DNA of 64,000 bases from Bacteroidales bacterium (GCA_041662065.1 JBAZTE010000008.1:78595-142594), one strand, 5' to 3'. Positions 531-39,543 are shown, numbered from the stretch's first letter. The notes: generated from the letters alone by a model not told the origin. Program-made: numbers and translations.

Positions 531-600
531 CAAAGAAAATGATTCCCCCTGTTTAATCAAAGGGGAAAGTGATTAGTGGTCTGATAATAAGATAAGCGGA
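531..600 (-). promoter_or_regulatory. operator+promoter module copy 1 (direct repeats + -33 TTTG / -7-like box)
   Basis: The reverse complement reads tCCGCTTATCTtattatcagaCCACTAATCACtttccccTTTGattaaacagggggaatcatTTTCTTTG. Repeat starts are 20 nt apart. It sits 30 nt upstream of ATG 500. Confidence 0.65.
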
Positions 601-665
601 CTCTACCCAACTTTAATTTTGGACCGCTTATTACTAACAATAGGGACAATTCGTGTGATGCGATA

Positions 666-3122
666 TCACCTCTGGTTCAGTGTTGCCTGTTCAATTGAAT
701 ATTCCTCCCCGCTTGATGACCGAAACCCCTCAGGAAACCCATTCCTGGCAATAATTCTGACGATATCATTGGATAGTGGATATTGCATCGTCAGGTTATA
801 TTCCCCGGATGAACCTCTTTCTGATTTGCAATAGATTACCTGACAGTTTTTACTATCAGGAATGAGATACAACATGGATAATTCATCAACATCATTCCAA
901 TCAATTATAGAAAACAGAAACGGAATAAACTCCTTTGGGTAAACCGGTTCGGCGATATCGTAATGCACATGATGAAACCTGATTGTTTTATCATTGATAT
1001 CCTGACTGAAGATCGTATCACTGCCGGCGATGAAGCGTATGGGGGACAAAATGTCTGTAAGCTCCAAAATAGATTCGGAATTATCATCCTTCTTATGGAT
1101 AGCGATACCTTTCCTGCTTTTTGAAAACCATAGTTTCAGCTGCCTGTTTCCCTCTTTAGAAACATAGGTTACCGTATCTTCCGGTATCCTAAAAGCGCAT
1201 CGCCCTTCGGTGAATGATTTCTTCTGATCCTTGATAATGGAAAACAGCCGCGCATCCGGATCATATTTTATATCTATTTCGTTTCCTTCCACCGGCATTT
1301 CAAAAACAGTCGTTTTCCCCTGAACCGGGATTACCTTCCGGAAAGTGTTGTTCTTAGTTTTGATCTCTACTTCCAGGTGAAGGGTAAAATAAGGCTCATC
1401 CTGCACCACCGTGATTTTCACAATACTTATACCCCGATTTATTTCCAGCTGTCCCTGTACGCTCAGAACCGGATTTTGTTTGCGGTTAAGCCATTGTTCT
1501 TCAAATTTTTTCAGATCCTGACCTGATACTTGCTCAAAGATTTCCAGGTATTCCTGCGTAGAGCTCAGCCTTGTACCTGCCATGGTACCCATCCGGAACA
1601 ATGCTTTTTGAAAATTTTCTCTACCGATCTCCGATTCAAGCATTCTGAATACCCATGAGGCTTTTGAATAAGCTGACCAATAGGTCGGAATGCTTGTGGA
1701 GGTGATGTTTATCAATGGCTCTTCGAATAAGTCAAAACAGTGCAGGTATTTTCTTTTTTGATTCTCCCAAGTTTTGGCATCCTTCTTTTGCTCCTGCAAA
1801 TATTCATAAGACAAGAAATTGGTAAAGCCCTCACTGATCCACAAATAATTTCCGGCAACTGTAGGTTTCGGAGCGCTGTGACAAACTTCATGCAAATACC
1901 CGATCCCATCGCTGCCAATGATTGCAGCATTCTGGGCGACAATCGAATGGCCGTCATTGAGCAAGCCCCCGTCCGTGAAATTGTCCAGAACCACGAAGTT
2001 GATCCTGTAACTTCCATAATTATTGAATTTCCTATTGATCCATTTCAGCAGGGTGTCAACCTCTGCAATCACAAAGTCACGTTCCTTCTGATCCTGCCGG
2101 GTGAAATAAAATCCGATACGGGTATTCCCGTTTACTATTTCCTTTTGATCCCAATTATTCCGGGCATAAAATGCGATGTCGTCCATCCAGGTACCATCCA
2201 GGATTGACTTTGTTTCCTTTTTCCCGTCCGGCAATGACTTTTCAGTCGCTTCGCCATATTGTAATAAGGTAAATTCATCCGGATAAGTGTAGGTGATTTC
2301 AAAATGAGTGCTATCACCTGAAAAGAAATTCCGTCCCGAATTGCCTGGCGGAGGAGATGGAACCGCAGCAAAACCGCCAAGCCGGATAAAGAAAGAATTG
2401 CTGTTCATGCTGATGAACTGGTTAAGTGTTCCGGGGGATTTCAGGCGCCCGGTAATATGGACTTGGCATTTCCCGATTGTGTCCATTATACAGTGGACCA
2501 GATATCCAAACCGCTCATAATCAGCTTTCCGTCCATTCAGAATAAAGCCGATGATCTCAAAATCCTTAGCAAGTTTGAACAGCAGGTGGTGCGACTGTAA
2601 GCTCATAGTGATATTGCAGTCAAACGAAAAAAAAGAGGCGCCAGGATTGACGTTTAGATTTAGCTTGTAATCAATGAAATCTGGTGTGAAATCATCCATC
2701 ACTCGCTCGGTGAGGAAATAGTTGCCTGCTTTGTTTTCCAGTTTGTAAACGCGGTAGATAAAGTCGAAATACTCGTCATGGTTATCGCCGTCATATGGAG
2801 TGTTGTTGGTTGGTATATGCAGAAGAACAGCATCAGTGTTCAATCTGATTATTTTCGTGGCATTGAAGTTTAAATGCCCCCGTCGCAGTTCATATTTCCA
2901 TGTATCCAATTCCCGTTGACAGAAATCTACCGTGAAGAAAGGTTTTATTGCCTCAACATCAGCCGATTTCAGAGCGTTATGAAAATTCTGCTCCCACAAA
3001 GCATACGATTGTGCGGAACTGTGAACAAAGGAACTTATAGCAAAGATCAGGATGAATGCCATCCGCTTAATCGAATGTGTTGTTTCCATTTGGCTTGCGT
3101 TTTTGGGTGCAAATAGAGACAA
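666..3122 (-). CDS. M1/gluzincin-like zinc metallopeptidase, secreted (818 aa)
   Basis: ORF track. It contains HEVCH followed by WISEGFTNF, i.e. HExxH plus a downstream Glu in an xEGF context as in M1-type aminopeptidases, although the spacing is shorter than the canonical X18. The N-terminus is signal-like (MAFILIFAISSFVHSSAQ). The exact start is uncertain (3122, 3089 or 3062). Confidence 0.6.
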   Translation of the reverse strand: MSLFAPKNASQMETTHSIKRMAFILIFAISSFVHSSAQSYALWEQNFHNALKSADVEAIKPFFTVDFCQRELDTWKYELRRGHLNFNATKIIRLNTDAVLLHIPTNNTPYDGDNHDEYFDFIYRVYKLENKAGNYFLTERVMDDFTPDFIDYKLNLNVNPGASFFSFDCNITMSLQSHHLLFKLAKDFEIIGFILNGRKADYERFGYLVHCIMDTIGKCQVHITGRLKSPGTLNQFISMNSNSFFIRLGGFAAVPSPPPGNSGRNFFSGDSTHFEITYTYPDEFTLLQYGEATEKSLPDGKKETKSILDGTWMDDIAFYARNNWDQKEIVNGNTRIGFYFTRQDQKERDFVIAEVDTLLKWINRKFNNYGSYRINFVVLDNFTDGGLLNDGHSIVAQNAAIIGSDGIGYLHEVCHSAPKPTVAGNYLWISEGFTNFLSYEYLQEQKKDAKTWENQKRKYLHCFDLFEEPLINITSTSIPTYWSAYSKASWVFRMLESEIGRENFQKALFRMGTMAGTRLSSTQEYLEIFEQVSGQDLKKFEEQWLNRKQNPVLSVQGQLEINRGISIVKITVVQDEPYFTLHLEVEIKTKNNTFRKVIPVQGKTTVFEMPVEGNEIDIKYDPDARLFSIIKDQKKSFTEGRCAFRIPEDTVTYVSKEGNRQLKLWFSKSRKGIAIHKKDDNSESILELTDILSPIRFIAGSDTIFSQDINDKTIRFHHVHYDIAEPVYPKEFIPFLFSIIDWNDVDELSMLYLIPDSKNCQVIYCKSERGSSGEYNLTMQYPLSNDIVRIIARNGFPEGFRSSSGEEYSIEQATLNQR

Positions 3123-3162: not shown

Positions 3163-4281
3163 CTAGTCCCTGGTATGATTTTTCAGTTTGGCAATCAATT
3201 CCTGCCTGTTGGTAACGTTTAGTTTCGAATTGATATTTCCGATGTGCGTTTTTACCGTACTCAGGCTGATGTACAATTGGGCGGCTATTTCGTTGTTTGA
3301 TTTGCCTTCACTGACCAGATGGGCTATTTTCTTTTCCTGTGCTGATAAATCAGATAACCCCTTGCTGGTTTCCTGTTTATTTCTCCTTCGTAGTTTTCGT
3401 AAAAGAACCAGGAGAGTCGCCAAAAGAGACAGGATGATCGTCGCTAGTAAGTAGTTTAATCTTTTTTGAAACAGGTACTTCTGGTGAATGATCGAGGCTG
3501 AAAATTTTGAGATTTCCTCTTTAAATTGTATGCAGTATGATTTGCCTGAATAATAGCCATCCAATTGCTTAAGAAGGTCATCATAGAATTCCGGATTACC
3601 TTTAAAATCTTCGTTTAATCCATCGACATTTCTTCTGATATGGGCAAAGGCCAGCAACCTTACTAATGGATCGGACAAGGAATCAGAACCATACTGTTTG
3701 AAATTATCCAGATAGTTTTTCTTTGCCTGGCCGATTGCGTCGGTATTTTGGTTTTCGCTCAATTCCTTGAGAAGGGAAAGCTCGTAACCGATTGATTTCC
3801 TCCAATGTTTGTCGGCCTGATTGGTATTCCGGGGATTGGAGAACCAAGCGCCGTTTTCCTTTGGAAAAAATAGGGTATCGGAATTGGAAAAAATGAAATT
3901 GTGATAATTTTTTTTCGTGCCAGTTTCTTGAAAATCAAGCCCATAAGAATTTTCGCCAAGGTTGCAATGAATCCGATACAGCATGTTCTCATTCGGCAAC
4001 AGCTTTCCGGCAATTTTGAAATAGCCAGTGCTGTCGGTTTTTGTCGAAATCAGAACTTGTTCAGGATAGATCGCATTCTCTTCATTATATCGCAACTGAC
4101 TCAGGTATACAGTCTTACTCGATTCCTTCGTGCTGATATACCCGGATATGGAATATTGGCAGTATCCCGTGCGGACAATCAGTAAAAATAATACCAGGAT
4201 TGAAGCGTATCGTCTGGTCGCGTTAAGCTTGGTGTTTACTAATACTGAGGGGAAAATTATCAGCCTATCAATATATTTCAT
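3163..4281 (-). CDS. membrane-anchored LuxR/GerE-family transcriptional regulator (372 aa)
   Basis: ORF track. The C-terminus LSAQEKKIAHLVSEGKSNNEIAAQLYISLSTVKTHIGNINSKLNVTNRQELIAKL is a GerE-type HTH. It is preceded by a hydrophobic segment (LLATIILSLLATLLVLL) followed by RKLRRRNK. The N-terminus carries a signal/anchor and an extracytoplasmic region of about 230 aa. Confidence 0.75.
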   Translation of the reverse strand: MKYIDRLIIFPSVLVNTKLNATRRYASILVLFLLIVRTGYCQYSISGYISTKESSKTVYLSQLRYNEENAIYPEQVLISTKTDSTGYFKIAGKLLPNENMLYRIHCNLGENSYGLDFQETGTKKNYHNFIFSNSDTLFFPKENGAWFSNPRNTNQADKHWRKSIGYELSLLKELSENQNTDAIGQAKKNYLDNFKQYGSDSLSDPLVRLLAFAHIRRNVDGLNEDFKGNPEFYDDLLKQLDGYYSGKSYCIQFKEEISKFSASIIHQKYLFQKRLNYLLATIILSLLATLLVLLRKLRRRNKQETSKGLSDLSAQEKKIAHLVSEGKSNNEIAAQLYISLSTVKTHIGNINSKLNVTNRQELIAKLKNHTRD

Positions 4282-4284
4282 CTA

Positions 4285-4399
4285 AGTTGTATGCCTATTC
4301 TACATTTTGTTCAAGTTTTCTGAACCATGCGTATGTTGATCTTCTACGAATTAACTTCAAAGAAAATGATTCCCCCTGTTTAATCAAAGGGGAAAGTTT
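4285..4399 (-). promoter_or_regulatory. operator-less paralogue of the copy-1 promoter/leader (promoter half only)
   Basis: By my hand alignment 4285-4399 matches 457-572 at about 85%, and the last 42 nt (4358-4399 vs 531-572) are identical. Where the two direct repeats should lie, the sequence is the 3' end of CDS 4380-5612. The copy of the small-ORF start (ATG 4328-4326) hits a stop after 5 codons. Confidence 0.55.
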
Positions 4400-5612
4400 G
4401 GTTTTTTAATACTTTTCTCAATTGTTCTATATGATTTCTTCCTTCCAAATAGTCTGGATTTAATTCTACTGATTTCTCATAGTTAATCAATGCTAAATCC
4501 TCTTGTTTGTTTTTCAAATAGGCATCGGCCAAAGTGCTATAGGTAATCCAGGAATCAGGCGATATTTTTATACCGATCTTAAAAACACTGATAGCTGCAC
4601 CATAGTTATTTTTTTCAATCCACGAATTTCCAATTTCATTAATCTTATTTGCAAATCTGCCTATTAGCCTGATATCTTTTTCGAAAAGTACACCTGTGAC
4701 ATTTTTATACCTTATTGAATCACTTAAGATATCTTCACTTTTATATAAATCCAGAGAACTATTTATTGCATTATAGTTATTCAAAAAATCCCGCCCCTTT
4801 TTATTCTCTGGAAATAAGTCGGGAATGACCAAACTGTAGTTCTTTTTTTTAAGTTCTTGATTTAAATTGAATTTCACAACTTGAGTATAATCTCGAAAGA
4901 AGTATAGATTTATAGTACCTTCCTTTAAATCATAAATGGTTGTATACATTGTACCTGCACCCCAATTTCTTTCCTGATGCATGGTATCCATTACAGATGA
5001 ACAAAAACTGATACTTGTGTCCTTTGGGCCTTCCAATAATCTCTTCCCTTTATAATATATAGGAATGTTTATTTCACTCTCATCTTTTATTTGGGAAGGG
5101 TAAAAGTTAGAGAGAACATAGGATTGATTATTTCCAGTAATAAGCGAATCTCCTTCAACAACAAGATATTTACCTGTTTTATCGATAAATAAAAACATGG
5201 ATGTCTCTAATCCCTTTAAACTATACTGCTTAAAATATTTTTTTACATCATCAACATTGGACAACTTTTTCATTATCTCTTTTAAAAAGTTCGCATCGAG
5301 GTTCTTTTTCCCCAGCGTATCGTTGATTGCTAAATAGTCCATCGAGAATCCATCAAACACCAAACCTGCTTGATTCATTCCCCCTTGTGGCCAAAAATTA
5401 TCATAGCCAACATAAACAACTCCGTATTCATTTAGTTTCCCCTGTTCAAACCAAATGCGAGTATTAGGATTCCAATAGTCTTCATTGTTACCAACCATTG
5501 TTTTGCCATTTATGGTTAATTTGAACATACTGCAACCAAGGGTGTTTTGGGCTAAAATAAAAACCAAAATGAATAGTGCAAAAATCATCATTATTATTTT
5601 TCTGTCTTTCAT
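4380..5612 (-). CDS. Ntn-hydrolase-like protein (choloylglycine hydrolase / linear-amide C-N hydrolase / C45 type) with C-terminal TPR (410 aa)
   Basis: ORF track. The signal peptide ends ...AQNTLG|CSMF, so Cys would be the first mature residue, as in Cys-Ntn hydrolases. There are NNEDYW and GMNQAGL segments and a TPR-like C-terminus (AYLKNKQEDLALINYEKSVELNPDY). Confidence 0.5.
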   Translation of the reverse strand: MKDRKIIMMIFALFILVFILAQNTLGCSMFKLTINGKTMVGNNEDYWNPNTRIWFEQGKLNEYGVVYVGYDNFWPQGGMNQAGLVFDGFSMDYLAINDTLGKKNLDANFLKEIMKKLSNVDDVKKYFKQYSLKGLETSMFLFIDKTGKYLVVEGDSLITGNNQSYVLSNFYPSQIKDESEINIPIYYKGKRLLEGPKDTSISFCSSVMDTMHQERNWGAGTMYTTIYDLKEGTINLYFFRDYTQVVKFNLNQELKKKNYSLVIPDLFPENKKGRDFLNNYNAINSSLDLYKSEDILSDSIRYKNVTGVLFEKDIRLIGRFANKINEIGNSWIEKNNYGAAISVFKIGIKISPDSWITYSTLADAYLKNKQEDLALINYEKSVELNPDYLEGRNHIEQLRKVLKNQTFPFD

Positions 5613-7330: not shown

Positions 7331-7400
7331 CAAAGAAAATGATCCACCCTGTTCAATCAAAGAAGAAAGTGATTAGCGGTCAGAAAACAGGATATGCGGG
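7331..7400 (-). promoter_or_regulatory. operator+promoter module copy 3
   Basis: The reverse complement reads cCCGCATATCCtgttttctgaCCGCTAATCACtttcttcTTTGattgaacagggtggatcatTTTCTTTG. It lies 32 nt upstream of ATG 7298. Confidence 0.65.
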
Positions 7401-8654: not shown

Positions 8655-8682
8655 AATGTGGCTCGCAAGGATTGGATCTTTT

Positions 8683-9351: not shown

Positions 9352-9353
9352 TT

Positions 9354-9945: not shown

Positions 9946-10014
9946 CAAAGAAAATGATACCCTGAGTTTAATCAAAGGATAAAGTGATAGGCGGTCAGAT
10001 AAAAGGATTAGCGG
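9946..10014 (-). promoter_or_regulatory. operator+promoter module copy 4
   Basis: The reverse complement reads CCGCTAATCCttttatctgaCCGCCTATCACtttatccTTTGattaaactcagggtatcatTTTCTTTG. It lies 37 nt upstream of ATG 9908. Confidence 0.65.
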
Positions 10015-13245: not shown

Positions 13246-13266
13246 GGGATTTCCTGTGCTGAAAAG

Positions 13267-15064: not shown

Positions 15065-15117
15065 ATTACGGTTATAACTGCTTTCATTTTATTCATATGA
15101 TTTCATTTGCTATTTTT

Positions 15118-16517: not shown

Positions 16518-16549
16518 GATATTTATTTTAATAGTTTGTAATTTATTTT

Positions 16550-17200: not shown

Positions 17201-17270
17201 GCGAAGAAAAGTATAACCCATTATCAATCAAAGGAGAAAGTGATAAGCGGTCAGATAATCGGATAAATGG
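17201..17270 (-). promoter_or_regulatory. operator+promoter module copy 5
   Basis: The reverse complement reads CCATTTATCCgattatctgaCCGCTTATCACtttctccTTTGattgataatgggttatacTTTTCTTCG. It lies 27 nt upstream of ATG 17173. The distal repeat is weaker. Confidence 0.6.
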
Positions 17271-19165: not shown

Positions 19166-19235
19166 ACAAATAAAGTGATAAACTATTATCAATTAAAGGA
19201 TAAAGTGATAAACGGTCAGATAATAGGATAGGCGG
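19166..19235 (-). promoter_or_regulatory. operator+promoter module copy 6
   Basis: The reverse complement reads CCGCCTATCCtattatctgaCCGTTTATCACtttatccTTTAattgataatagtttatcacTTTATTTG. It lies 16 nt upstream of ATG 19149. The -33 box is TTTA rather than TTTG. Confidence 0.6.
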
Positions 19236-24334: not shown

Positions 24335-24366
24335 ATCGTTCCATTCTGTCTAGTAAATATCAACAT

Positions 24367-25296: not shown

Positions 25297-25300
25297 GATA

Positions 25301-26804: not shown

Positions 26805-26876
26805 CCATAAAAGAAGAGGACATTCAGGCGTTAGCAAAAGAGATTGTGATAAGCGGCAGAATAAGGTGATAAGCGG
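26805..26876 (-). promoter_or_regulatory. operator+promoter module copy 7 (embedded in the 3' end of CDS 26824-27921)
   Basis: The reverse complement reads CCGCTTATCACcttattctgCCGCTTATCACaatctctTTTGctaacgcctgaatgtcctcTTCTTTTATGG. The two 11-mers are perfect copies, 20 nt apart. Confidence 0.65.
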
Positions 26877-29604: not shown

Positions 29605-29637
29605 GTTTGAAACATTATATAAATTCTAAATTCCGAT

Positions 29638-31151: not shown

Positions 31152-31220
31152 CAAAGGAAATGGACAACCAACCTTTATCAAAGGAGAAAGTGATAAGCGG
31201 TAGTATAAGGTGATAACCGG
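31152..31220 (-). promoter_or_regulatory. operator+promoter module copy 8
   Basis: The reverse complement reads CCGGTTATCACcttatactaCCGCTTATCACtttctccTTTGataaaggttggttgtccaTTTCCTTTG. It lies 35 nt upstream of ATG 31116. Confidence 0.65.
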
Positions 31221-32223: not shown

Positions 32224-32237
32224 TTTTCCTATATCAA

Positions 32238-32726: not shown

Positions 32727-32820
32727 TTTTCAATAGTTTTAGTTGGTCTGTCATATGCTTATACCTAACTGGCTTGTAAGTACTAGCCATCATAAAATGA
32801 CTGTTTTAGCTCTATATATA

Positions 32821-33732
32821 TCAGGCCCCGCCGATACTGACAATGCGGTTACCGTGCTCCAACGTATTTCTTAAACTTTCCAGATCCTCCGAATTCATTG
32901 AGGGAATTCCTGTCTGCACCTGATGCGTGTATATCGACTTTAGTTTGTCCTCCCCGAAACGGTGATAAGGCAATAAATGTATTTCTTTAGCAGCAGCAGT
33001 TGTAAGAAATTGATCCAGAAGCGATATCTTATCTGGTTCATAATTTATTCCCGGTATAATTGGAATGCGAAAAACAACATGACTTTTCTGTTCAATAAGT
33101 TTATACGCATTTGATAATATTCTAACATTATCTATACCCGTATTCGTTTTATGTAATACCGGATCAATACCTTTAATATCAAAATAGAAAATATCAACAT
33201 ATCTGGTCAGTAATTTTAGTTTATTCCAATGCAATATCCCGGAAGTTTCCAGAACAATGTGATAACTCTCGTTTTTCAATGCCTCCAGCAGATTCACAAG
33301 AAAATCGTATTGTAATGTTGGCTCTCCGCCTGAAATTGTTACACCGCCACCCGAACGTGAGTAAAATGAGGTTTCTTTTCTGATTTCAACCATGATTTCT
33401 TCGACAGTCATTTGTCTGCCTATCATTTCCAAGGCTTGCGACATACAAACTTCTGTGCATTTTCCGCAATTGTCACAAACCGCCCAGTCAATTCTATGGG
33501 TACTTTTCAGATCAATCACTTTGAGGGGACAGGCTTGCTGACATTTTTTACATGAAATACATTTGGATGCATGAAAGGATATCTGCGGCCAGGGATATAT
33601 CGACTCAGGATTTTCACACCAGAGACATCTCAAGGTACAACCCTTGAAAAAAATAACCGTCCGTATGCCCGGTCCGTCGGACAGACAATAATTTTGAATA
33701 TTGAAGATAGTGCCTTTCATGATTGATTTCAT
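32821..33732 (-). CDS. glycyl-radical enzyme activating protein (radical SAM, with two auxiliary 4Fe-4S motifs) (303 aa)
   Basis: ORF track. It has GPGIRTVIFFKGCTLRCLWCENPES (CxxxCxxC) plus CISCKKCQQAC and CDNCGKCTEVC. It overlaps the GRE stop by 4 nt. Confidence 0.9.
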   Translation of the reverse strand: MKSIMKGTIFNIQNYCLSDGPGIRTVIFFKGCTLRCLWCENPESIYPWPQISFHASKCISCKKCQQACPLKVIDLKSTHRIDWAVCDNCGKCTEVCMSQALEMIGRQMTVEEIMVEIRKETSFYSRSGGGVTISGGEPTLQYDFLVNLLEALKNESYHIVLETSGILHWNKLKLLTRYVDIFYFDIKGIDPVLHKTNTGIDNVRILSNAYKLIEQKSHVVFRIPIIPGINYEPDKISLLDQFLTTAAAKEIHLLPYHRFGEDKLKSIYTHQVQTGIPSMNSEDLESLRNTLEHGNRIVSIGGA

Positions 33733-36203
33733 TTGTGATATTCGGTACGCGAAATAATTTCATCCTGGGTAAACTTGGTTAGCTCAACGAATCTGGCACT
33801 ATAGCCCGAAATTCTTACCAGCAAATCCTGATAATTTTCAGGGAACTGCTGTGCCAGTTTTAAGGTCTCAGCATCCACAACGGTTGCCTGAAGATTCTGT
33901 CCATTATAATCATAAAAATAGGCCAGTATCATATTTTTAAATCTTTTGATCTTGTCAGTGGAGTTAAAAAGAGATGGATTGAATCTTAGATTTACTGACA
34001 CCCCTGAAATGACTTTTGAAAAATTCAGCTTGCTCACTGATTTCAGAGTGGCTGTGTAACCTTTTTTTTCTCTTCCCCTTGCGCTTCCGGCACCTATGGA
34101 AAAAGGTTCCATTTGTTTCCTTCCATCAGGAGTTGCTCCGGTTACAAAACCAAGCACAACATGACCATTTTCAGAATGTACACCAATAGTGTGTTTGCCA
34201 TTCCTGAAAGTACTGTATTTTGAAGCCTCGGTGGAGCAGAAATTCGCCACATCCTGAGCAATCAGGTCAACACAGTCAATGTCATTTCCGTATTTTGAGA
34301 TTTTGTTGAGCAGATATAATCTGTCGTGTTCATAGCCATCAAAATTCTGGCGTAACATTTTTTTGAGTGATTTCAGAGAATATACCTGATCCTCAAAAAC
34401 GGCTTTTTTTACTGCTATAAGGGAATCTGCCAACGTTCCAAGTCCGAGTAATGATATCCCGGTCAGATTGGTTTTTGCTCCTCCTGATTTAACATCAAGA
34501 CCGCTTTTCATTGTTCCGTCAACAAGAGCAGATATCAGCGTATTAGGCAATAACTCTTTATGCGCTTTGTCCACCTTCATCAGTGTGATGGTGACATTTT
34601 TTATAACCTCCGATAAATAGCCCTTATATGATTCGTAAAAATCTTCATATGAATTGTAATCCTGATTCCTTTTAAGAAATAGTTCGAGCGTTCGGGGCAA
34701 TACCAAATGGGCAGCGCAAACTGAGCCATACGTTGAGGCAGGAATGGGTTGTACACACCCCGATAGGAGATAGTTTCTGGCATCCTCTAATGGAATACCG
34801 TTATTTATAAATCCCTGAATAATAGTCTCGTCATTAAAAATCTGAACGGTATTGGCGCCACTGCTCATGATACTCGTGACCAGATCCAGAAATTTGTCAG
34901 GAGTACCTTTATGGAGCCGTACTGCCGGATTAGGCTGAATCATCCTGCAATTGGAAAGAGCCTCAAGGAAAAGATACGAAACCTCATTTGTAGCATCTTC
35001 CCCATTACTGTCGACACCACCGATGGTCAGCGTTAGCCTGCCGCTATTCCCGTCTTCGAAAAAACTTGCCCCATTATGAAGTAAAAATTCTATTTCATTT
35101 ACTTTTAATACAAAGCATTCAATCAGTTCCAATGCCTGAACCCGGGTAATTCGGCCTTGTTTAATATCTTCTTGATAAAGAGGGTCCAAAACCTGGTCCC
35201 ATCTGCCAAAAGGTACTTCGTGTCCGCAGTCGTCATTCAAAACCGCAAGATACATGAACCACAGTGATTGAATCCCTTCATGAAAAGTGCGTGGAGGGTT
35301 TGCCGGGACATGGCGGCATATCTGAGCAACTTTCAATAACTCAGCTTTTCTTTGAGGAGATTCTGCCGTTTTCTCCATCGATTCAGCCAATGCTGCATAT
35401 CGGTTGGCTAATGTAATTACCCCGCGCATTGAATCGGCGAGGGCAATATAAAGATCATTGTTCCAAACTATTTTATATTTTTCGGCCTCACCAATGATTT
35501 GGTTCAGTCCTTTTTGTACTGTTTTTTCAATATTGGGATGGAACAGGAAAACTCCGCCTCCAAAAGCGTGTTCAGCTAAATAATTAAACTGATTCATCAG
35601 TGATTTCTCTTCTCTGGAAAGATAAGTTCGATAAAGGGAGTAAGCATTTTTTCCCTTCCAATAAGGAATTATGATATTTTCCAGATCAAGCTTTTCCTTT
35701 GTTCCGATAAGGAATCGCTGTGATGCCCGATTTTCCGGATTATCGAATTTCATATTAAATAACAACTTCGCTGAAGCCAGTTGCATCCCCAGAAATTTAT
35801 CGAACCTGTATATTAATCGGGAACTTGTATCGGTAATTGTAGTAAGTGTCCTTTTGAAAAGTTGATTATGTTTTCCTCCTGTTGACATCCCGTCAATATT
35901 GGTTTCCGGAGATAAAAACGCACCTTTTCTTTTTTCTGTGATGCCGCCCACCAAGAGCTCGTCATCGTAAATTTTGATTGGAATATCTTCCATTAGTGTC
36001 CGAAATGCAAGAGACCGTTTAAGTAATAGTGCTTTTTCACGGTTTTGCTCGAACACTTCGGTAAATACTCTTCCCCGGACAGACGAAATTTCACGAATTG
36101 TGGATTGTATGGTTTTTTTGAGCGCCCTTGTCCTGATTGTGGACATGGTATATTTATGTTTTTCGTAATTCATTTTGTCCTGGTGAATTTGTTGGAGCTC
36201 CAT
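33729..36203 (-). CDS. glycyl radical enzyme of the PFL2/glycerol-dehydratase-like class, substrate unknown (824 aa)
   Basis: ORF track. The glycyl radical motif is VRISGYSARF (Gly800, codon 33804-33806). The Cys loop is ARNYLLSGCVQP (Cys483, codon 34755-34757). The Cys-to-Gly distance (317 aa) is as in known GREs. Confidence 0.9.
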   Translation of the reverse strand: MELQQIHQDKMNYEKHKYTMSTIRTRALKKTIQSTIREISSVRGRVFTEVFEQNREKALLLKRSLAFRTLMEDIPIKIYDDELLVGGITEKRKGAFLSPETNIDGMSTGGKHNQLFKRTLTTITDTSSRLIYRFDKFLGMQLASAKLLFNMKFDNPENRASQRFLIGTKEKLDLENIIIPYWKGKNAYSLYRTYLSREEKSLMNQFNYLAEHAFGGGVFLFHPNIEKTVQKGLNQIIGEAEKYKIVWNNDLYIALADSMRGVITLANRYAALAESMEKTAESPQRKAELLKVAQICRHVPANPPRTFHEGIQSLWFMYLAVLNDDCGHEVPFGRWDQVLDPLYQEDIKQGRITRVQALELIECFVLKVNEIEFLLHNGASFFEDGNSGRLTLTIGGVDSNGEDATNEVSYLFLEALSNCRMIQPNPAVRLHKGTPDKFLDLVTSIMSSGANTVQIFNDETIIQGFINNGIPLEDARNYLLSGCVQPIPASTYGSVCAAHLVLPRTLELFLKRNQDYNSYEDFYESYKGYLSEVIKNVTITLMKVDKAHKELLPNTLISALVDGTMKSGLDVKSGGAKTNLTGISLLGLGTLADSLIAVKKAVFEDQVYSLKSLKKMLRQNFDGYEHDRLYLLNKISKYGNDIDCVDLIAQDVANFCSTEASKYSTFRNGKHTIGVHSENGHVVLGFVTGATPDGRKQMEPFSIGAGSARGREKKGYTATLKSVSKLNFSKVISGVSVNLRFNPSLFNSTDKIKRFKNMILAYFYDYNGQNLQATVVDAETLKLAQQFPENYQDLLVRISGYSARFVELTKFTQDEIISRTEYHK

Positions 36204-36245
36204 TGTTATTCTTGTCCTTTGCTTTTTACGCGGGAGAATCTTAAG

Positions 36246-37064
36246 CTATCTGCCTGGTACAATGGTAGTATCCCAAACATCGGAATAATAAATTCCGAAA
36301 TTCCCCAGTGCCCCGTTATCGAAATTGCCGATCGGGTTATAAGGTGTTGCCGAAATAAAACCAGGCAGGCCCATATCATTGATTTGTTCATAATAAGAAT
36401 AACTGACGGAATCAATGCATTGGAACTCCAGGCAAACGGTATCACCAAGCTGAAAATCATATTCATCAAGTGGCATGTTGACTTCAGCCCCGTCGAACGG
36501 CTGGTCATTGTTAATCGAAATACTTCCGGGCACTATCTTGCCATTTTTACTTACTTTAAACCGGTAGTAATTGGCTATTCCGGCCGGATCCTTCCACTTA
36601 GGGCTCAGGAGAAATACCAAGGGACTGTTTGGGCCGGGACCTCCGAAACCCATGACCACGTTCAGGCTGTCAAGGTTTACCCTTACCGGAACTTCAGTTT
36701 TCGCTAAGAAAATTTCTCCTGATGATAGGGTCACGCTGAGATTGAAAACATCACCCGGACTAACAGTTAAACCATTGGCAAAATAAAAACCCGGTGTATC
36801 CTCCGGTAAAGTTTTAATTAACCCTGATTTGTTCGTCAATTCAACTTTGGCGCCAATAATTTTTGGCAGGGACTCGGTATGGTAAAAATCGAGGGAATGA
36901 GTGAGGAAAACATTGCACTCGCCCCGACTGGCGTTCAATGTGGCATCTATCACTACCCGGGATGCTGAGTTCTTCAGGTCCAGCTTGATTACATCTTCGC
37001 ACGAAGTCAAAAATAGGACCGGAGCGAAAATCAGAAGAAACGGAATTATTAATAGTCTTTTCAT
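36246..37064 (-). CDS. DUF4249-type lipoprotein (usual partner of CarboxypepD_reg-type TonB-dependent receptors) (272 aa)
   Basis: ORF track. It has a lipobox LTSC, and its size and position directly after a TonB-dependent receptor fit. The family is assigned from memory of this gene pairing. Confidence 0.55.
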   Translation of the reverse strand: MKRLLIIPFLLIFAPVLFLTSCEDVIKLDLKNSASRVVIDATLNASRGECNVFLTHSLDFYHTESLPKIIGAKVELTNKSGLIKTLPEDTPGFYFANGLTVSPGDVFNLSVTLSSGEIFLAKTEVPVRVNLDSLNVVMGFGGPGPNSPLVFLLSPKWKDPAGIANYYRFKVSKNGKIVPGSISINNDQPFDGAEVNMPLDEYDFQLGDTVCLEFQCIDSVSYSYYEQINDMGLPGFISATPYNPIGNFDNGALGNFGIYYSDVWDTTIVPGR

Positions 37065-37070
37065 GTTTTG

Positions 37071-39407
37071 TTAGAATTTAAAGTTCCAGGTAATGGAGGG
37101 TACAATTCCAAAAAGTGACAGTCTCACGGCTTCGGTGGTTCCCGGCACAGTTTTACTTTCCCTGAACGAGATGCTGTAAGCGTTTTTCCGGTCATAGACA
37201 TTGTATACCGAAAAATTGATGTCGGAACCCCATCTTTTCTTTTGCTTAAACTGGTAGGTAATCCCCAGGTCAAGCCTGTGGTAGTCAGGCATCCTTGATC
37301 CGTTTCTTTCAGTATAAAGGTTGATGAGAACCCCATCCACCATGTATTTCCCACTAGGAAAAGTTACCGCATCGCCGGTATAATAGATCCAGTTTCCTGA
37401 TAAGGTCAGCCGTTGGGCGATCTGGTAAGAAGCCACGATTGAAATATTGTGGGTCCGGTCCTGCCGTGCTGAAAACCATTGACCAAAATTGATGCGTTCG
37501 AATTGCTTTTCAGATTTTGCCAGGGTATAACTGATCCAGCCTGTAAGTTTCCCGCTGGTTTTGCCTGCCGAGAATTCCAGTCCGTAAGCGCGACCCCTTC
37601 CAAATTCAAGCTCTCCTTCAATATTTGGGTTTAAAAAAGTATTGGCGCCGTTCTTATAATCTACCAGATTGCTGAGGATCTTATAGTATGCTTCCACACT
37701 AAGATCCCAGTTTTTCTTTGGCAGATTCTTGAAGTAGCCGACCGATACCTGATCGGCTGTAGTCGGTTTGATCAGAGGAGTGCTGGGGGTCCACAAATCG
37801 GTAGGTAAGCTGGATACTGAATTCGAAAGGATATGAAGGTACTGAAACATCCGGTTGTAACTTGCCTTGATCGAATTTGTGCTGTTAATCAGGTAGTTTG
37901 CAGTAATCCGGGGCTCAAACCCAATATAGGTATTGTAGAACTTCCCGGATGAATAGGCAACCGAGTCCAGGATTTCCTTATGATCATTATAAGTTTTTAC
38001 TGTGGTTGGTCCTATATTGTTAAACAGGCTCAACCTGAAACCATAATTCATGCTGAACGAATTGCTGATTTTCTGTTCATTGGACACATAGATGCCGCTC
38101 TCCAGGGCCTGCTGAGGCTCTATATGGAAAGAGGGCAGGGTTGTATTCGACTCATTGCCCGGAGTAAAGTTCCCGGCTTTAAACTGATGATAAGTCGAAT
38201 TCCATCCGAAGCGGACCTGGTTGCTGGTATTCGGATACCAGGTAAAATCCTGCTTCAGGCTGTAATCAAGGATCCCTGAGGTCAACTTGAATGAGAAATT
38301 CCCGGCAGCCGCCATGAATCCATAATTATAATCGCTGTAAATGGCTGAAGTATTTAAAAACAAAACCTGGTTAAAAGTATGGTTCCACCGGAGGGTGAGC
38401 GTATTATTACCGGAATCGAATCCGACCTGCTTTAGATCGAAAATGTCCTTTCCCATATAACCGGATAAAAAGAGCCGGTCCTTATCACCCAGGATATAAT
38501 TGGCCTTTAAATTTAAGTCGTAGAAGTAAAGGGTCAGGCCGTCAGCAAGGTTGCTTACCGCTTTTAGGGCCACATCGGCATAGGTGCGCCTGCCGCTGAT
38601 CATGATGGAAGACTTGTCTTTAACCAGAGGACCCTCCACGGTAAGGCGCGATGAAATCAGTCCGATGCCTCCGGTAACCCCCCATGACTTTGAGTTCCCG
38701 TCCCTCATCCGGATATCAAGAACAGATGAAACCCGGCCACCGTATGGAGCCGGAATACCCCCCTTGTACAGTTTTACATCTTTTATGGCATCGGAATTAA
38801 ACACCGAGAAAAAACCCAGAAGGTGGGATGCATTATATACCGGCGCTTCATCCAAAAGAATGTGATTCTGATCAGCTTCGCCTCCCCTGACAAAATAATT
38901 GCTGCCACCCTCACTGCTGGGGCTCACCCCTGGCAAGAGCTGAATAGCCTTAATAATATCCCTTTCGCCAAACAGCACAGGTACTAATTTCAATTGCTTG
39001 ATATCCAGCTTTATCGCACCCATTTCGAGACTCCTGACCGTATTTTTCATGCTTTTTCCGGTAATTTCCACGGTACCCAGCGAAGTGGCCTTTGGTTTGA
39101 GTTCCATATCCCTGTTAGTATCGGATTTCAGGTTCAGCTTCACTGCAACAGTCTCATAACCAAGATATGAGTATTGAATAGTATAATTTCCGGCCGGAAC
39201 TTTAACGGAATAAAATCCATATTGATTAGTAGTGGCCCCGGTATTCAGTTCAACAATCGCCACATTGGCAAATAAAAGGACTTCACCGTTCGCTGCATCC
39301 TTTATGTACCCGCTTAATGAGTACTGGACCTCTTTACCGGCGATCAGATTACAGGGGATCAGCCAAACAAAAGCGAACAGACAGAATAAGAGAAATTTTA
39401 ACTTCAT
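37071..39407 (-). CDS. TonB-dependent outer-membrane receptor with N-terminal CarboxypepD_reg-like domain
   Basis: ORF track (to 39458). The signal peptide MKLKFLLFCLFAFVWLIPCNLIAG argues for a start at 39407. It has a SGYIKDAANGEVLLFANV regulatory-like domain, a plug region (…RGGEADQNHILLDEAPVYN) and a C-terminal aromatic end ITWNFKF. Confidence 0.85.
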   Translation of the reverse strand: MKLKFLLFCLFAFVWLIPCNLIAGKEVQYSLSGYIKDAANGEVLLFANVAIVELNTGATTNQYGFYSVKVPAGNYTIQYSYLGYETVAVKLNLKSDTNRDMELKPKATSLGTVEITGKSMKNTVRSLEMGAIKLDIKQLKLVPVLFGERDIIKAIQLLPGVSPSSEGGSNYFVRGGEADQNHILLDEAPVYNASHLLGFFSVFNSDAIKDVKLYKGGIPAPYGGRVSSVLDIRMRDGNSKSWGVTGGIGLISSRLTVEGPLVKDKSSIMISGRRTYADVALKAVSNLADGLTLYFYDLNLKANYILGDKDRLFLSGYMGKDIFDLKQVGFDSGNNTLTLRWNHTFNQVLFLNTSAIYSDYNYGFMAAAGNFSFKLTSGILDYSLKQDFTWYPNTSNQVRFGWNSTYHQFKAGNFTPGNESNTTLPSFHIEPQQALESGIYVSNEQKISNSFSMNYGFRLSLFNNIGPTTVKTYNDHKEILDSVAYSSGKFYNTYIGFEPRITANYLINSTNSIKASYNRMFQYLHILSNSVSSLPTDLWTPSTPLIKPTTADQVSVGYFKNLPKKNWDLSVEAYYKILSNLVDYKNGANTFLNPNIEGELEFGRGRAYGLEFSAGKTSGKLTGWISYTLAKSEKQFERINFGQWFSARQDRTHNISIVASYQIAQRLTLSGNWIYYTGDAVTFPSGKYMVDGVLINLYTERNGSRMPDYHRLDLGITYQFKQKKRWGSDINFSVYNVYDRKNAYSISFRESKTVPGTTEAVRLSLFGIVPSITWNFKF

Positions 39408-39474
39408 GAATTTTTCAAATAAGTATTTAAGAAAGAAGGATATAGCAATTATTGCCATAAAAAAAATGAAACCG

Positions 39475-39543
39475 CAAAGGAAATGGACCTTCAGACTTTA
39501 ACAAAGGAAAATGTGATAAGCGGCAGTATAAGGTGATAGGCGG
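39475..39543 (-). promoter_or_regulatory. operator+promoter module copy 9 (between the LytTR gene stop and the TonB receptor)
   Basis: The reverse complement reads CCGCCTATCACcttatactgCCGCTTATCACattttccTTTGttaaagtctgaaggtccaTTTCCTTTG. The distal repeat ends 6 nt after the response-regulator stop codon (39550). Confidence 0.65.

What the first reader, a model, noticed from the sequence alone, without database searches (positions are those of the whole stretch)
531..39543. A ~70-nt operator+promoter module, eight full copies and one operator-less copy, heads almost every operon of a 39-kb island: putative LytTR regulon
Read in the direction of the minus-strand genes, eight intergenic regions share one architecture. 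It runs: distal repeat, 9 nt, proximal repeat CCGCTTATCAC (repeat starts exactly 20 nt apart, two helical turns), TTTCTCCTTTGAT (TTTG = Bacteroidota -33 box), ~19 nt, (C)ATTTyCTTTG (TAnnTTTG-like -7 box with one mismatch), then usually 16-37 nt to the ATG. The reverse-complemented copies are as follows. 600-531: tccgcttatcttattatcagaccactaatcactttcccctttgattaaacagggggaatcattttctttg. 7400-7331: cccgcatatcctgttttctgaccgctaatcactttcttctttgattgaacagggtggatcattttctttg. 10014-9946: ccgctaatccttttatctgaccgcctatcactttatcctttgattaaactcagggtatcattttctttg. 17270-17201: ccatttatccgattatctgaccgcttatcactttctcctttgattgataatgggttatacttttcttcgc. 19235-19166: ccgcctatcctattatctgaccgtttatcactttatcctttaattgataatagtttatcactttatttgt. 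26876-26805: ccgcttatcaccttattctgccgcttatcacaatctcttttgctaacgcctgaatgtcctcttcttttatgg. 31220-31152: ccggttatcaccttatactaccgcttatcactttctcctttgataaaggttggttgtccatttcctttg. 39543-39475: ccgcctatcaccttatactgccgcttatcacattttcctttgttaaagtctgaaggtccatttcctttg. A ninth copy (4358-4399) keeps only the promoter half. Every copy is co-oriented with the gene run that follows it. Together they would drive most genes from 195 to 39407, though a few internal gaps of 70-216 nt (upstream of 4380-5612, 20245-21072, 21144-21978 and 32238-32726) could hold additional promoters. These include three T9SS propeller proteins, OM barrels, esterases, MBL hydrolases, quinone oxidoreductases, the NifS-rhodanese/C_GCAxxG_C_C/PQQ-propeller run, and the TonB receptor-GRE run. 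Direct repeats of 9-11 bp with a ~20-21-bp period abutting the -35-equivalent box are the classical operator geometry of LytTR regulators (AgrA, ComE, PlnC/D, AlgR). A LytTR pair is encoded in the island. I know of no described Bacteroidota LytTR regulon of this kind.
Basis: partly seen in the sequence, partly recalled or inferred. Interest (0 to 1): 0.9.

Follow-up and report, generated by a model that had tools for sequence, protein, structure and literature searches.

The report
Conserved LytTR operator-promoter regulon in Bacteroidales
Eight copies of one ~70-base control element sit in front of eight gene clusters next to a LytTR-type two-component regulator, and the same element follows that regulator's gene in many related uncultured Bacteroidales. 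It is therefore very probably the regulator's binding site plus promoter: an ordinary kind of switch, but apparently the first one mapped for this abundant regulator family in this phylum.

Summary
Eight 69-72-nt modules, all on the minus strand, share two 11-nt direct repeats (CCRCYWATCAY) that start 20 nt apart. Next come a -33 TTTG, a 19-nt spacer and a -7-like TTnCTTTG, then 16-37 nt to an ATG. Leave-one-out PWM scores are 32-42 bits, against a maximum of about 9 in shuffles, and there are no other hits on either strand of the 64 kb.

Comparative genomics supports the LytTR-regulon reading. In loci fetched only by similarity to the response regulator, 12 of 13 orthologues (67% identity or more) have the module just after the regulator's stop codon. 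Only 1 of 58 paralogues (53% or less) does (Fisher p = 1e-11). Across 61 distinct modules from many Bacteroidales MAGs, all are intergenic and point towards the next gene. They precede the same gene families as in the window: T9SS PD40/He_PIG propellers, esterases, quinone oxidoreductases, TonB receptors, small outer-membrane proteins, and sometimes the kinase/regulator operon itself.

The half-site core matches the experimentally defined E. coli BtsR (YehT) site, CC[G/A]CT[C/T]A at 20-21-nt spacing. Binding, transcription start sites and the inducing signal are untested. I found no paper describing such a regulon in Bacteroidota. Verdict: a real, new member of a known kind, of moderate interest.

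The parts
39475..39543 (-). Module 8: distal repeat CCGCCTATCAC, proximal repeat CCGCTTATCAC, -33 TTTG, -7 TTCCTTTG. It starts 7 nt after the regulator's stop codon and heads the operon TonB receptor - DUF4249 - glycyl-radical enzyme - activase - GNAT - epimerase (31279-39458).
   Evidence: Pfam
31152..31220 (-). Module 7. Heads the operon T9SS PD40/He_PIG propeller c - T9SS 560-aa protein - aspartyl protease (26824-31116).
   Evidence: Pfam
26805..26876 (-). Module 6, which overlaps the 3' end of the aspartyl-protease ORF and has a weak -7 box. Heads T9SS propeller b - esterase - MBL - DUF5128, and possibly esterase (frameshifted) - esterase - SDR (19474-26776).
   Evidence: Pfam
19166..19235 (-). 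Module 5 (-33 box is TTTA). Heads quinone oxidoreductase - MBL hydrolase (17325-19149).
   Evidence: Pfam
17201..17270 (-). Module 4 (-7 box ends TTCG). Heads small OM protein unk207 - DUF6567 - QOR - QOR - C_GCAxxG_C_C - NifS/rhodanese - PQQ-like propeller (10020-17173).
   Evidence: Pfam
9946..10014 (-). Module 3. Heads unk184 - unk222 (signal peptides and C-terminal aromatic residues; putative small OM barrels) - alpha/beta hydrolase (7509-9908).
   Evidence: Pfam
7331..7400 (-). Module 2. Heads T9SS PD40/He_PIG propeller a (5829-7298), possibly reading on into the TPR gene.
   Evidence: Pfam
531..600 (-). Module 1. Heads the 101-aa secreted protein gene (195-500) and whatever lies beyond the left edge of the window.
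4275..4399 (-). Operator-less copy: a ~125-nt duplicate of module 1's promoter half, 5' UTR and first codons. It overlaps the end of the TPR gene and lies upstream of the LuxR-type gene (3163-4281) and the M1 peptidase.
39550..40272 (-). Response regulator: receiver domain (DD at 10-11, D55, T82, K101) plus a LytTR DNA-binding domain. This is the proposed activator.
   Evidence: PF00072 3e-20, PF04397 7.5e-19; 32% identity to E. coli BtsR over the full length
40275..41417 (-). Histidine kinase: about four N-terminal membrane segments with no large periplasmic domain, then PF06580 His_kinase and a GHKL ATPase. This is the proposed sensor.
41427..41759 (-). 110-aa cupin gene, 9 nt upstream of the kinase and probably the first gene of the two-component operon. 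No module lies upstream of it.

Best explanation
The ~70-nt element is a cis-regulatory cassette. It combines an operator for the adjacent LytTR-family response regulator (39550-40272) with an activator-dependent promoter for the primary Bacteroidota sigma factor.

Proposed mechanism:
1. The membrane-embedded PF06580 kinase (40275-41417) senses an unknown, probably membrane- or envelope-associated, signal. It phosphorylates the regulator on Asp55. This step is inferred.
2. Two phosphorylated regulator molecules bind the two direct repeats CCRCYWATCAY. The repeats start 20 nt apart, centred near -69 and -49. The proximal repeat ends 7 nt before the -33 TTTG. Binding is inferred; the geometry is read from the sequence and is conserved.
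3. The bound regulator recruits RNA polymerase to a promoter with a good -33 box but a systematically imperfect -7 box (TTnCTTTG instead of TAnnTTTG). Basal activity should therefore be low, and transcription should start a few nt after CTTTG. This step is inferred.

In this genome the cassette heads eight co-oriented operons of about 33 genes. They encode T9SS-secreted PD40/He_PIG propellers, small outer-membrane proteins, esterases and alpha/beta and MBL hydrolases, quinone oxidoreductases, a NifS-rhodanese/C_GCAxxG/PQQ-propeller run, and a TonB receptor with a glycyl-radical enzyme.

The regulon is conserved in related uncultured Bacteroidales. Its physiological role is unknown. Judging by gene content and the sensor-less kinase, my best guess is an envelope or xenobiotic (electrophile, ester or lactone) response.
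For: The eight copies are exact, and the PWM cleanly separates them from everything else in the window.

The module follows the regulator's stop codon in the window and in L002 (79% identical regulator), L003/L004 (87%), L005 (69%) and L203-L205 (73%).

In 71 metagenome loci fetched by regulator protein alone, 12 of 13 with 67% identity or more have the module 18-40 nt after the end of the match. Only 1 of 58 with 53% identity or less does (Fisher p = 1.3e-11). The 661,704 bp of paralogue loci contain one module. A second LytTR regulator in L002 (30% identity) has none.

More distant relatives (46-47% identity) carry their own direct repeats with a 20-nt period just after the stop codon. L142 has a related half-site (TTACCACTT[T/A]TCGCA) and L139 a different one (AACTCA[T/C]CGAT).

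Of 61 distinct modules, only 6 are spanned by an open frame of 100 codons or more on either strand (5 at 150 or more), and in every case it is on the module's own strand. In the one case checked (window copy 7) it is the upstream extension of the downstream gene. By contrast, 77% of random positions in the same loci are spanned by a frame of 150 codons or more. The first ATG lies 49-107 nt after the operator in most copies.

Column conservation is about 0 bits upstream of the distal repeat and high over the repeats, the -33 box and the -7 box. The -7 TTTG lies exactly 65 nt from the operator start in 46 of 53 non-window modules. That includes 19 of 22 from protein-fetched loci, which the search pattern could not have biased. 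The octamer starts TT rather than TA in 47 of 48.

Downstream genes in other genomes belong to the same families as in the window. In L003/L004, L023 and, more weakly, L203, a module also precedes a kinase gene, followed in L003/L004 and L203 by the regulator gene, which implies autoregulation.

Published LytTR sites are two repeats of 9-11 nt separated by 11-13 nt (PMC4847170). The E. coli YehT/BtsR site oligo carries CC[G/A]CT[C/T]A at offsets 10, 30 and 51, and it shares the 11-mer CTGACCGCTTA with module 4.

The Bacteroidota promoter consensus, -33 TTTG and -7 TAnnTTTG, is taken from PMC7366714.
Against: There is no experimental evidence for binding, for the transcription start site or for induction.

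I therefore have no whole-genome count of modules for any genome. The claim that the module is not scattered rests on about 1.6 Mb of fetched loci.

Thirty-one of the 53 non-window modules came from loci found with a pattern derived from the module itself, which inflates conservation at the pattern columns. The 22 copies from protein-fetched loci are free of this bias.

Some within-genome similarity plainly reflects duplication rather than selection. Examples are copy 9 and copy 1, and the shared -33/-7 spacers among copies 1-3, 4-5 and 7-8.

The window's own two-component operon has no module upstream.

The repeat period is 20 nt, not the most common LytTR value of 21.

Co-localisation cannot strictly exclude a different, unlinked factor that co-occurs with this clade.
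Confidence: 0.8

Rival explanations
1. The repeats are an operator, but for a different transcription factor. Candidates are the island's LuxR-type protein (3163-4281), its TPR partner, or an unlinked global regulator. The position next to the LytTR gene would then be incidental synteny.
For: Binding has not been tested. A LuxR-type gene lies in the island, and a LuxR-domain protein of 895 aa lies downstream of a module in L062.
Against: The module tracks the LytTR orthologue clade (12 of 13 against 1 of 58) and abuts its stop codon in every separately fetched orthologue locus. The fetched orthologue loci show no LuxR-type gene among the called genes near the modules. GerE/LuxR domains usually bind inverted repeats (general knowledge), whereas these are direct repeats with the LytTR spacing and a BtsR-like half-site.
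Confidence: 0.07
2. The element is just a shared promoter cassette that spread by segmental duplication. The repeats would be passenger sequence or an UP-like element with no dedicated regulator.
For: Copy 9 shows that promoter-plus-5'-end segments do get duplicated. Groups of window copies share spacer sequence. The -33/-7 spacer is partly conserved among many MAG modules.
Against: The repeats are the most conserved part of the element across species whose regulators are only 67-87% identical, while flanks and the spacer diverge. The one duplicate that lost the repeats (copy 9) shows they are separable. The link to one regulator clade would be unexplained. The systematically imperfect -7 box fits dependence on an activator.
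Confidence: 0.04
3. The element is a mobile or repetitive sequence (MITE, REP or BIME-like) that happens to lie between genes.
For: It is short, repeated and multi-copy within a 39-kb region. In copies 1 and 9 the -33/-7 spacer can form a hairpin that was flagged as terminator-like.
Against: There are no terminal inverted repeats. All 61 modules point towards the next gene. No module lies inside a long reading frame on the opposite strand, and the 5-6 same-strand frames that span a module look like upstream extensions of the downstream gene. The distance to the start codon is fixed. Modules sit upstream of orthologous gene families in different species, and none occurs in 662 kb of unrelated Bacteroidota loci except one next to a 50%-identical regulator.
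Confidence: 0.01
4. The regulator binds the repeats but acts mainly as a repressor or dual regulator, or the TTnCTTTG box is read by an alternative sigma factor rather than the primary one.
For: E. coli BtsR is annotated as a dual regulator. The -7 box deviates from TAnnTTTG in 47 of 48 cases.
Against: The operator lies wholly upstream of the -33 box, which is the usual activator position, not over the core promoter. The -33 TTTG, the 19-nt spacing and the TTTG end of the -7 box match the primary-sigma consensus.
Confidence: 0.08

Closest known systems
E. coli BtsS/BtsR (YehU/YehT) pyruvate-responsive LytS/LytTR two-component system and its site in the yjiY (btsT) promoter
   Same: Both have a kinase with the PF06580 His_kinase domain and a regulator with receiver plus LytTR domains (32% identity over the full length, E = 2e-38). 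Both operators are direct repeats with core CC[G/A]CT[C/T]A at 20-21-nt spacing. The E. coli site oligo shares the 11-mer CTGACCGCTTA with module 4.
   Different: I recall BtsR as having essentially one target gene, a CstA-type transporter; this was not checked here. Here there are eight operons and no such transporter. BtsS is 561 aa and, from memory, carries 5TM-LYT and GAF sensor domains. The kinase here is 380 aa with about four membrane segments and no such Pfam domains. The promoter is the Bacteroidota -33/-7 type. The regulator is a homologue, not an orthologue.
Lactobacillus plantarum pln regulon (PlnC/PlnD) and related peptide-pheromone LytTR regulons (AgrA, ComE, BlpR)
   Same: In both, several operons each carry the same pair of direct repeats at a fixed distance from the core promoter. 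[quoted passage not shown] Both use an activator bound just upstream of the -35 equivalent. Autoregulation of the two-component operon is seen in some related genomes.
   Different: No peptide pheromone gene, HPK10-type kinase or ABC exporter was found here. The half-site sequence is unrelated to the Agr/Com/Pln sites as I recall them. The targets are secreted propellers, hydrolases and oxidoreductases rather than bacteriocins, competence genes or toxins.
LytTR Regulatory Systems (HdrRM/BrsRM type; PMC6193735)
   Same: Both involve a LytTR DNA-binding domain acting on direct repeats.
   Different: From memory, those systems pair a receiver-less LytTR protein with a membrane inhibitor; I saw only the title and abstract of PMC6193735. 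Here there is a classical receiver domain and a histidine kinase.
Bacteroidota primary-sigma promoters (-33 TTTG, -7 TAnnTTTG)
   Same: The module has a -33 TTTG and, 19 nt later, an octamer ending in TTTG, followed by a short leader.
   Different: The second position of the octamer is T instead of the consensus A in 47 of 48 modules. This is a conserved weakening, consistent with dependence on an activator.

Membership tests
LytTR-family two-component regulon (regulator plus direct-repeat operator) | Response regulator with a C-terminal LytTR DNA-binding domain (PF04397) and a receiver domain with the phospho-acceptor Asp | tested here: met
   PF00072 at 3e-20 and PF04397 at 7.5e-19. D55 aligns with the Asp of the LFLDIQ motif in E. 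coli BtsR. The closest solved LytTR domain is 3d6w at E = 4.6e-4.
LytTR-family two-component regulon (regulator plus direct-repeat operator) | Cognate histidine kinase encoded next to the regulator | tested here: met
   A PF06580 His_kinase at 3.2e-26 with a GHKL domain lies 2 nt upstream of the regulator gene. The same pairing is found in L002, L003, L005 and L203.
LytTR-family two-component regulon (regulator plus direct-repeat operator) | Operator made of two direct repeats of 9-11 nt separated by 11-13 nt (PMC4847170) | tested here: met
   Repeat starts are exactly 20 nt apart in all eight window copies and in the PWM-matched copies elsewhere. Read as a 9-nt core CCRCYWATC, the spacer is 11 nt. 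Read as 11-nt repeats, the spacer is 9 nt. So the geometry sits at the short end of the published range.
LytTR-family two-component regulon (regulator plus direct-repeat operator) | Operator lies immediately upstream of the -35-equivalent promoter element of the regulated genes | tested here: inconclusive
   The proximal repeat ends 7 nt before a conserved -33 TTTG, and a -7-like box lies at a fixed +65. This geometry is met relative to predicted boxes, but no transcription start site has been mapped.
LytTR-family two-component regulon (regulator plus direct-repeat operator) | Operator co-occurs with the orthologous regulator across genomes and is absent with paralogues | tested here: met
   12 of 13 orthologue loci against 1 of 58 paralogue loci, p = 1.3e-11. 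The four separately fetched orthologue loci agree.
LytTR-family two-component regulon (regulator plus direct-repeat operator) | The regulator physically binds the repeats and activates transcription | not testable with these tools
   Needs EMSA, DAP-seq or a reporter assay.
Peptide-pheromone quorum-sensing LytTR systems (Agr/Com/Pln/Blp) | Small secreted peptide precursor, HPK10-type kinase and a dedicated exporter in the locus | tested here: not met
   The kinase is PF06580-type. Pfam found no exporter in the island. The only small signal-peptide ORF (19362-19246) is the remnant of a TonB-receptor N-terminus.
BtsS/BtsR (YehU/YehT) orthologous group | Kinase with 5TM-LYT and GAF sensor domains, and a CstA-type pyruvate transporter as target | tested here: not met
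   The kinase is 380 aa and its only Pfam hits are PF06580 and HATPase_c_5. There is no CstA-type gene in the island. The regulator is only 32% identical to BtsR. It shares the half-site core but is not an orthologue.
MITE/REP-type repeated element | Copies in both orientations, inside or between genes, with terminal inverted repeats or a palindromic core, and independent of gene starts | tested here: not met
   All 61 modules point towards the next gene. Only 6 are spanned by an open frame of 100 codons or more on either strand, always on the module's own strand and apparently the upstream extension of the downstream gene. By contrast, 77% of random positions are spanned by a frame of 150 codons or more. 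The repeats are direct, not inverted.

The most novel reading that the evidence does not exclude
This could be the first defined regulon of the abundant but uncharacterised PF06580-kinase/LytTR two-component family in Bacteroidota. It would be a clade-wide programme that switches on a fixed toolkit through one portable operator-promoter cassette. The toolkit comprises T9SS-secreted PD40/He_PIG propellers, small novel outer-membrane proteins, esterases, MBL hydrolases, quinone oxidoreductases and a TonB-receptor/glycyl-radical-enzyme module. It would respond to a signal sensed within the membrane. That would make it a previously unrecognised envelope, xenobiotic or cell-cell response, and the first link between LytTR signalling and T9SS cargo expression.
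Probability: 0.35. Interest if true: 0.7.

Novelty: new member of a known kind. Interest (0 to 1): 0.55.

Why it matters
LytTR regulators paired with PF06580 kinases appear to be very numerous in Bacteroidota: the protein search returned 7,363 related regulators with E of 1e-20 or better. Yet I found no paper that defines a binding site or a target set for any of them.

This window and its relatives supply a precise, testable operator: CCRCYWATCAY twice, 20 nt apart, at a fixed distance from the -33 and -7 boxes. They also supply a conserved list of target gene families. That turns 'what do these systems control?' into direct experiments, such as EMSA or DAP-seq with one protein, reporter fusions, and co-expression in metatranscriptomes.

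The finding also assigns a common regulatory context to several families of unknown function (the unk207 family, DUF6567, DUF5128, He_PIG propellers). It suggests that the BtsR-type half-site is ancient within the LytTR family. Finally, the cassette is a candidate inducible promoter part for Bacteroidales.

Tried and rejected
1. Whole-genome distribution. Many of the rows listed are chance matches in other phyla, with PWM scores of 20 bits or less and no promoter boxes. No per-genome count was obtained.

2. MITE/REP reading. Rejected on orientation, intergenic position and fixed distance to gene starts.

3. Peptide-pheromone reading. There are no NVEALA-type or other small precursor genes. The 38-aa signal-peptide ORF at 19362-19246 is the N-terminal remnant of a TonB-receptor gene, because its L123 homologue continues into a CarboxypepD_reg-like sequence.

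4. The sigma-70 promoter scan is uninformative, with counts equal to shuffles. The terminator scan flagged only the hairpin inside copies 1 and 9. This is not a general feature of the module.

5. Rfam found only a tmRNA, and nothing in the leaders or gaps of the island.

6. Pfam (E up to 1) and NCBIfam gave nothing for the small proteins unk207, unk222, unk184 and unk101. The glycyl-radical enzyme falls below every equivalog cut-off, so its substrate is unknown.

7. I looked for degenerate modules in the remaining internal gaps (upstream of 4380-5612, 20245-21072, 21144-21978 and 32238-32726). None appeared. Single half-site matches with two mismatches occur only inside genes, at what looks like chance level.

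8. I tested whether another LytTR regulator in a related genome carries the module (L002, 30% identity). It does not.

9. I did not attempt structure prediction or a homologue search for the unk207 family, because the result would not change the verdict on the regulatory element.

Full report

Yes. All eight quoted sequences are found letter for letter at the quoted minus-strand coordinates. The ninth, promoter-only copy is at 4358-4399. When the copies are anchored on the proximal repeat they align without gaps: an 11-nt distal repeat, 9 nt, an 11-nt proximal repeat, 7 nt, TTTG, 19 nt, then an octamer ending in TTTG.

A 31-nt PWM of the two-repeat operator scores the eight copies at 42.6-47.2 bits, or 31.8-41.8 bits when each copy is left out of its own matrix. 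The next best position on either strand of the 64-kb window scores 9.7. The maximum over 50 shuffled windows averaged 1.0, with a largest value of 8.9. A degenerate pattern finds 7 copies against 0.00 expected.

All copies lie between minus-strand genes and point at the next gene. The CTTTG-to-ATG distance is 16-37 nt. Two subfamilies are visible. Copies 1-5 read ...ATCCTnTTATCTGACCGC..., and copies 6-8 read ...ATCACCTTATaCTgCCGC....

**2. Gene context**

- three PD40/He_PIG/Por_Secre_tail proteins, plus a fourth T9SS cargo protein;
- PF00756 esterases, one of them frameshifted;
- MBL-fold and alpha/beta hydrolases;
- four Zn-ADH-type quinone oxidoreductases and an SDR;
- a C_GCAxxG_C_C - NifS/rhodanese - PQQ-like propeller run;
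- a TonB-type receptor - DUF4249 - glycyl-radical enzyme - activase run.

Three small proteins without any family (207, 184 and 222 aa) have signal peptides and C-terminal aromatic residues. This fits small outer-membrane barrels.

Immediately upstream of module 8 lie a 110-aa cupin and a 380-aa kinase. The kinase has about four N-terminal membrane segments followed by PF06580 and a GHKL domain. Next comes a 240-aa Response_reg+LytTR regulator whose stop codon is 7 nt from the module.

To the right of the island lie a tmRNA gene and core genes: the primary sigma factor, Rho, PFOR, PEPCK, RuvX and Def.

**3. Does the module go with the regulator?**

This was the key test. The regulator has very many close relatives in metagenomes. 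The loci I fetched for regulators 69-87% identical (L002, L003/L004, L005, L203-L205) all carry a module on the same strand directly after the regulator's stop codon. Some carry further copies nearby.

A scan of metagenome contigs with the regulator protein alone, which uses no motif information, returned a gradient of relatives:
- Among the 13 with 67% identity or more, 12 have a module 18-40 nt after the end of the match. The thirteenth has one about 1 kb downstream.
- Among the 58 with 53% identity or less, one (50% identity) has a degenerate module and one (53%) has a sub-threshold trace.
- The 661,704 bp of these paralogue loci contain a single module on either strand (Fisher p = 1.3e-11).

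A second LytTR regulator in L002 (30% identity) has no module.

Two more distant relatives have their own direct repeats with a 20-nt period just after the stop codon. L142 has a related half-site (TTACCACTT[T/A]TCGCA) and L139 a different one (AACTCA[T/C]CGAT). This is what one expects if each regulator reads the repeats next to its own gene.

**4. Is it a regulatory element rather than a repeat family?**

PWM rescoring of the returned loci was cleanly bimodal, however. Scores of 23 bits or more came only from Bacteroidales, Bacteroidia or Porphyromonadaceae MAGs. Nearly all of these also carried the -33 and -7 boxes, although the -7 box was not part of the pattern. Scores of 20 bits or less came mostly from other phyla and had no boxes.

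Pooling all sources gives 61 distinct modules:
- Only 6 are spanned by an open frame of 100 codons or more on either strand (5 at 150 or more), and always on the module's own strand. In the case checked (window copy 7) this frame is the upstream extension of the downstream gene. By contrast, 77% of random positions in the same loci are spanned by a frame of 150 codons or more.
- In most, a co-oriented ORF begins 49-107 nt after the operator.
- Column information content is about 0 bits upstream of the distal repeat. It rises to 1-2 bits over both repeats and part of the inter-repeat spacer. It is 1.5-2 bits over CTTTGA, 0.2-1.0 bits in the -33/-7 spacer, 1.1-2.0 bits over TTTCTTTG, and low downstream.
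- The -7 TTTG lies exactly 65 nt from the operator start in 46 of 53 non-window modules. That includes 19 of 22 from loci fetched by protein only.
- The octamer begins TT rather than the consensus TA in 47 of 48. The consensus is taken from PMC7366714.

**5. Is the regulon conserved?**

Genes downstream of modules in other genomes are homologues of the window's island genes. They include:
- the T9SS propeller (about 70-76% identical), esterase, MBL and DUF5128;
- TonB receptor plus DUF4249;
- the 207-aa and 222-aa small proteins and the 400-aa alpha/beta hydrolase;
- quinone oxidoreductases;
- the C_GCAxxG - NifS/rhodanese - PQQ run and the aspartyl protease.

A Pfam census of 83 such proteins gives PD40/He_PIG/Por_Secre_tail (7-8 proteins), Esterase (7), Zn-ADH (6), CarboxypepD_reg receptors (5), alpha/beta hydrolases (4), His_kinase (3) and Response_reg (2). 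PQQ-like, SDR, redoxin and Rce1-like families also appear.

In L003/L004 and, more weakly, L203, a module precedes the kinase-regulator operon itself. In L023 a module-headed operon includes a kinase gene. This implies positive autoregulation, which the window lacks.

**6. Comparison with known systems**

PMC4847170 states that LytTR sites are two direct or inverted repeats of 9-11 nt separated by 11-13 nt, with no common consensus. It also prints the E. coli YehT (BtsR) site oligo. In that oligo CC[G/A]CT[C/T]A occurs at offsets 10, 30 and 51, giving periods of 20 and 21 nt. Its middle repeat with its 5' flank, CTGACCGCTTA, is identical to module 4.

The window regulator aligns with BtsR over its full length at 32% identity. 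So the system works like BtsS/BtsR and like the multi-operon pln, agr and com regulons.

It is not an orthologue of BtsS/BtsR. The kinase lacks the BtsS sensor domains and there is no CstA-type target. It is not a peptide-pheromone system either, because there is no precursor, no HPK10-type kinase and no exporter. The one small signal-peptide ORF is a TonB-receptor remnant.

**7. Mechanism, and what is shown versus inferred**

Shown by sequence and comparison:
- the architecture of the element;
- its conservation;
- its exclusive association with one regulator clade;
- its position and orientation relative to genes;
- the shared target families.

Inferred:
- the kinase phosphorylates Asp55 in response to a membrane or envelope signal;
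- two regulator molecules bind the repeats, centred at about -69 and -49;
- they recruit primary-sigma RNA polymerase to a promoter weakened at the second position of its -7 box;
- transcription starts a few nt after CTTTG.

The physiological role is unknown. The gene content (secreted propellers, outer-membrane proteins, esterases, lactamase-fold hydrolases, quinone reductases, redoxins) and the sensor-less kinase suggest an envelope or xenobiotic response. That is a guess.

**8. Novelty and score**

Five full-text searches found no paper that defines a LytTR operator or regulon in Bacteroidota or Bacteroidetes. The hits are incidental mentions only. One of them states that the role of a LytTR mutation in Flavobacterium johnsoniae is unknown.

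The mechanism is the textbook LytTR one, so this is a new member of a known kind, not a new kind. It is a solid, experimentally testable regulon prediction for a large, uncharacterised regulator family. I score interest at 0.55, with 0.8 confidence that the element is this regulator's operator plus promoter.

**9. Limits**

- No genome-wide count was obtained.
- Thirty-one of the 53 non-window modules came from loci found with a motif-derived pattern.
- All related genomes are uncultured MAGs.
- Part of the similarity among copies within one genome reflects duplication.

Noticed in passing
window 48623-49023 (-): A tmRNA gene (Rfam RF00023, 158.7 bits) lies just right of the co-oriented gene block. 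GC content is 0.385-0.49 (mostly 0.39-0.46) from 1 to 48 kb, against 0.48 in the core-gene region to the right. tmRNA 3' ends are classic island insertion sites, but I saw no integrase.
   Followed up: partly
window 4275-4399 (-) versus 476-564 region of copy 1: The 'ninth copy' is a ~125-nt segmental duplicate, with few mismatches, of module 1's promoter half, 5' UTR and first ~15 codons. The duplicated ATG now opens a 5-codon ORF. The segment lies upstream of the LuxR-type gene and overlaps the stop codon of the TPR gene. This shows how the cassette can spread or decay.
   Followed up: yes
window 19246-19362 (-): A 38-aa ORF with a signal peptide (MKKYWIILVYILPLGLFGQNPNSL...) lies in the 324-nt gap upstream of module 5. 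Its homologue in L123 (7768 onward) continues into a CarboxypepD_reg-type TonB-receptor N-terminus. It is therefore a gene remnant, not a pheromone.
   Followed up: yes
window 21144-21978 (-): A PF00756 esterase gene is split into two overlapping ORFs (21655-21978 and 21144-21707). This is a probable frameshift, pseudogene or sequencing error. Intact 286-aa homologues head module-driven operons in L033 and L034.
   Followed up: partly
L142 (after 3967), L139 (after 10714), L140 (9464), L137 (about 2129): Regulators 46-53% identical to the window's carry their own direct repeats with a 20-nt period right after the stop codon. Examples are TTACCACTT[T/A]TCGCA and AACTCA[T/C]CGAT, and L140 and L137 have degenerate versions of the module. 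'Regulator gene, then its operator, then the target operon' may be a general layout for this family in Bacteroidota.
   Followed up: partly
L003 7498, L004 5498, L023 (7603 and 6677, minus strand), L203 8844: In L003/L004 and L203 a module precedes the kinase-regulator operon itself (autoregulation). In L023 two module-headed operons run into a kinase gene. L003/L004 have two tandem kinases. The window's two-component operon has no module upstream.
   Followed up: partly
modules in L019, L040, L064, L074, L086, L091, L095, L109, L111 (positions +42 to +60 of the module): The -33/-7 spacer is partly conserved among many MAG modules (GATTGAGCATGTTGCATTA, 0.2-1.0 bit per column). This is more than expected for a neutral spacer. 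It could reflect recent duplication, an extended promoter element or a second binding site. It remains unexplained.
   Followed up: no
window 545-564 and 4372-4391 (-): In copies 1 and 9 the sequence between the -33 and -7 boxes forms a 7-bp GC-rich hairpin (CCCTTTGATTAAACAGGGGG) followed by a T-rich run. The scan flagged it as terminator-like. Other copies do not share it.
   Followed up: partly
window 624-634 (+): A single inverted half-site (CCGCTTATTAC on the plus strand) lies 24 nt upstream of module 1's distal repeat. It may be chance.
   Followed up: no
L005 10733-10783: Here the module has a third, weaker repeat (CCTTTATCC) a further 20 nt upstream. That gives three repeats in phase, as in the E. 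coli yjiY site.
   Followed up: no
window 3163-5612 (-) and L062 1844-4531: The island encodes a TPR protein (410 aa) followed by a LuxR/GerE-domain protein (372 aa). In L062 an 895-aa protein with a homologous GerE domain lies second in a module-driven operon. This is a possible second-tier regulator of the regulon.
   Followed up: partly
window 33729-36203 (-): The glycyl-radical enzyme scores below the cut-off of every NCBIfam equivalog (CutC, HypD, sulfopropanediol dehydratase, PFL and others). Its substrate is therefore unknown. It is co-transcribed with a TonB-type receptor and DUF4249.
   Followed up: partly
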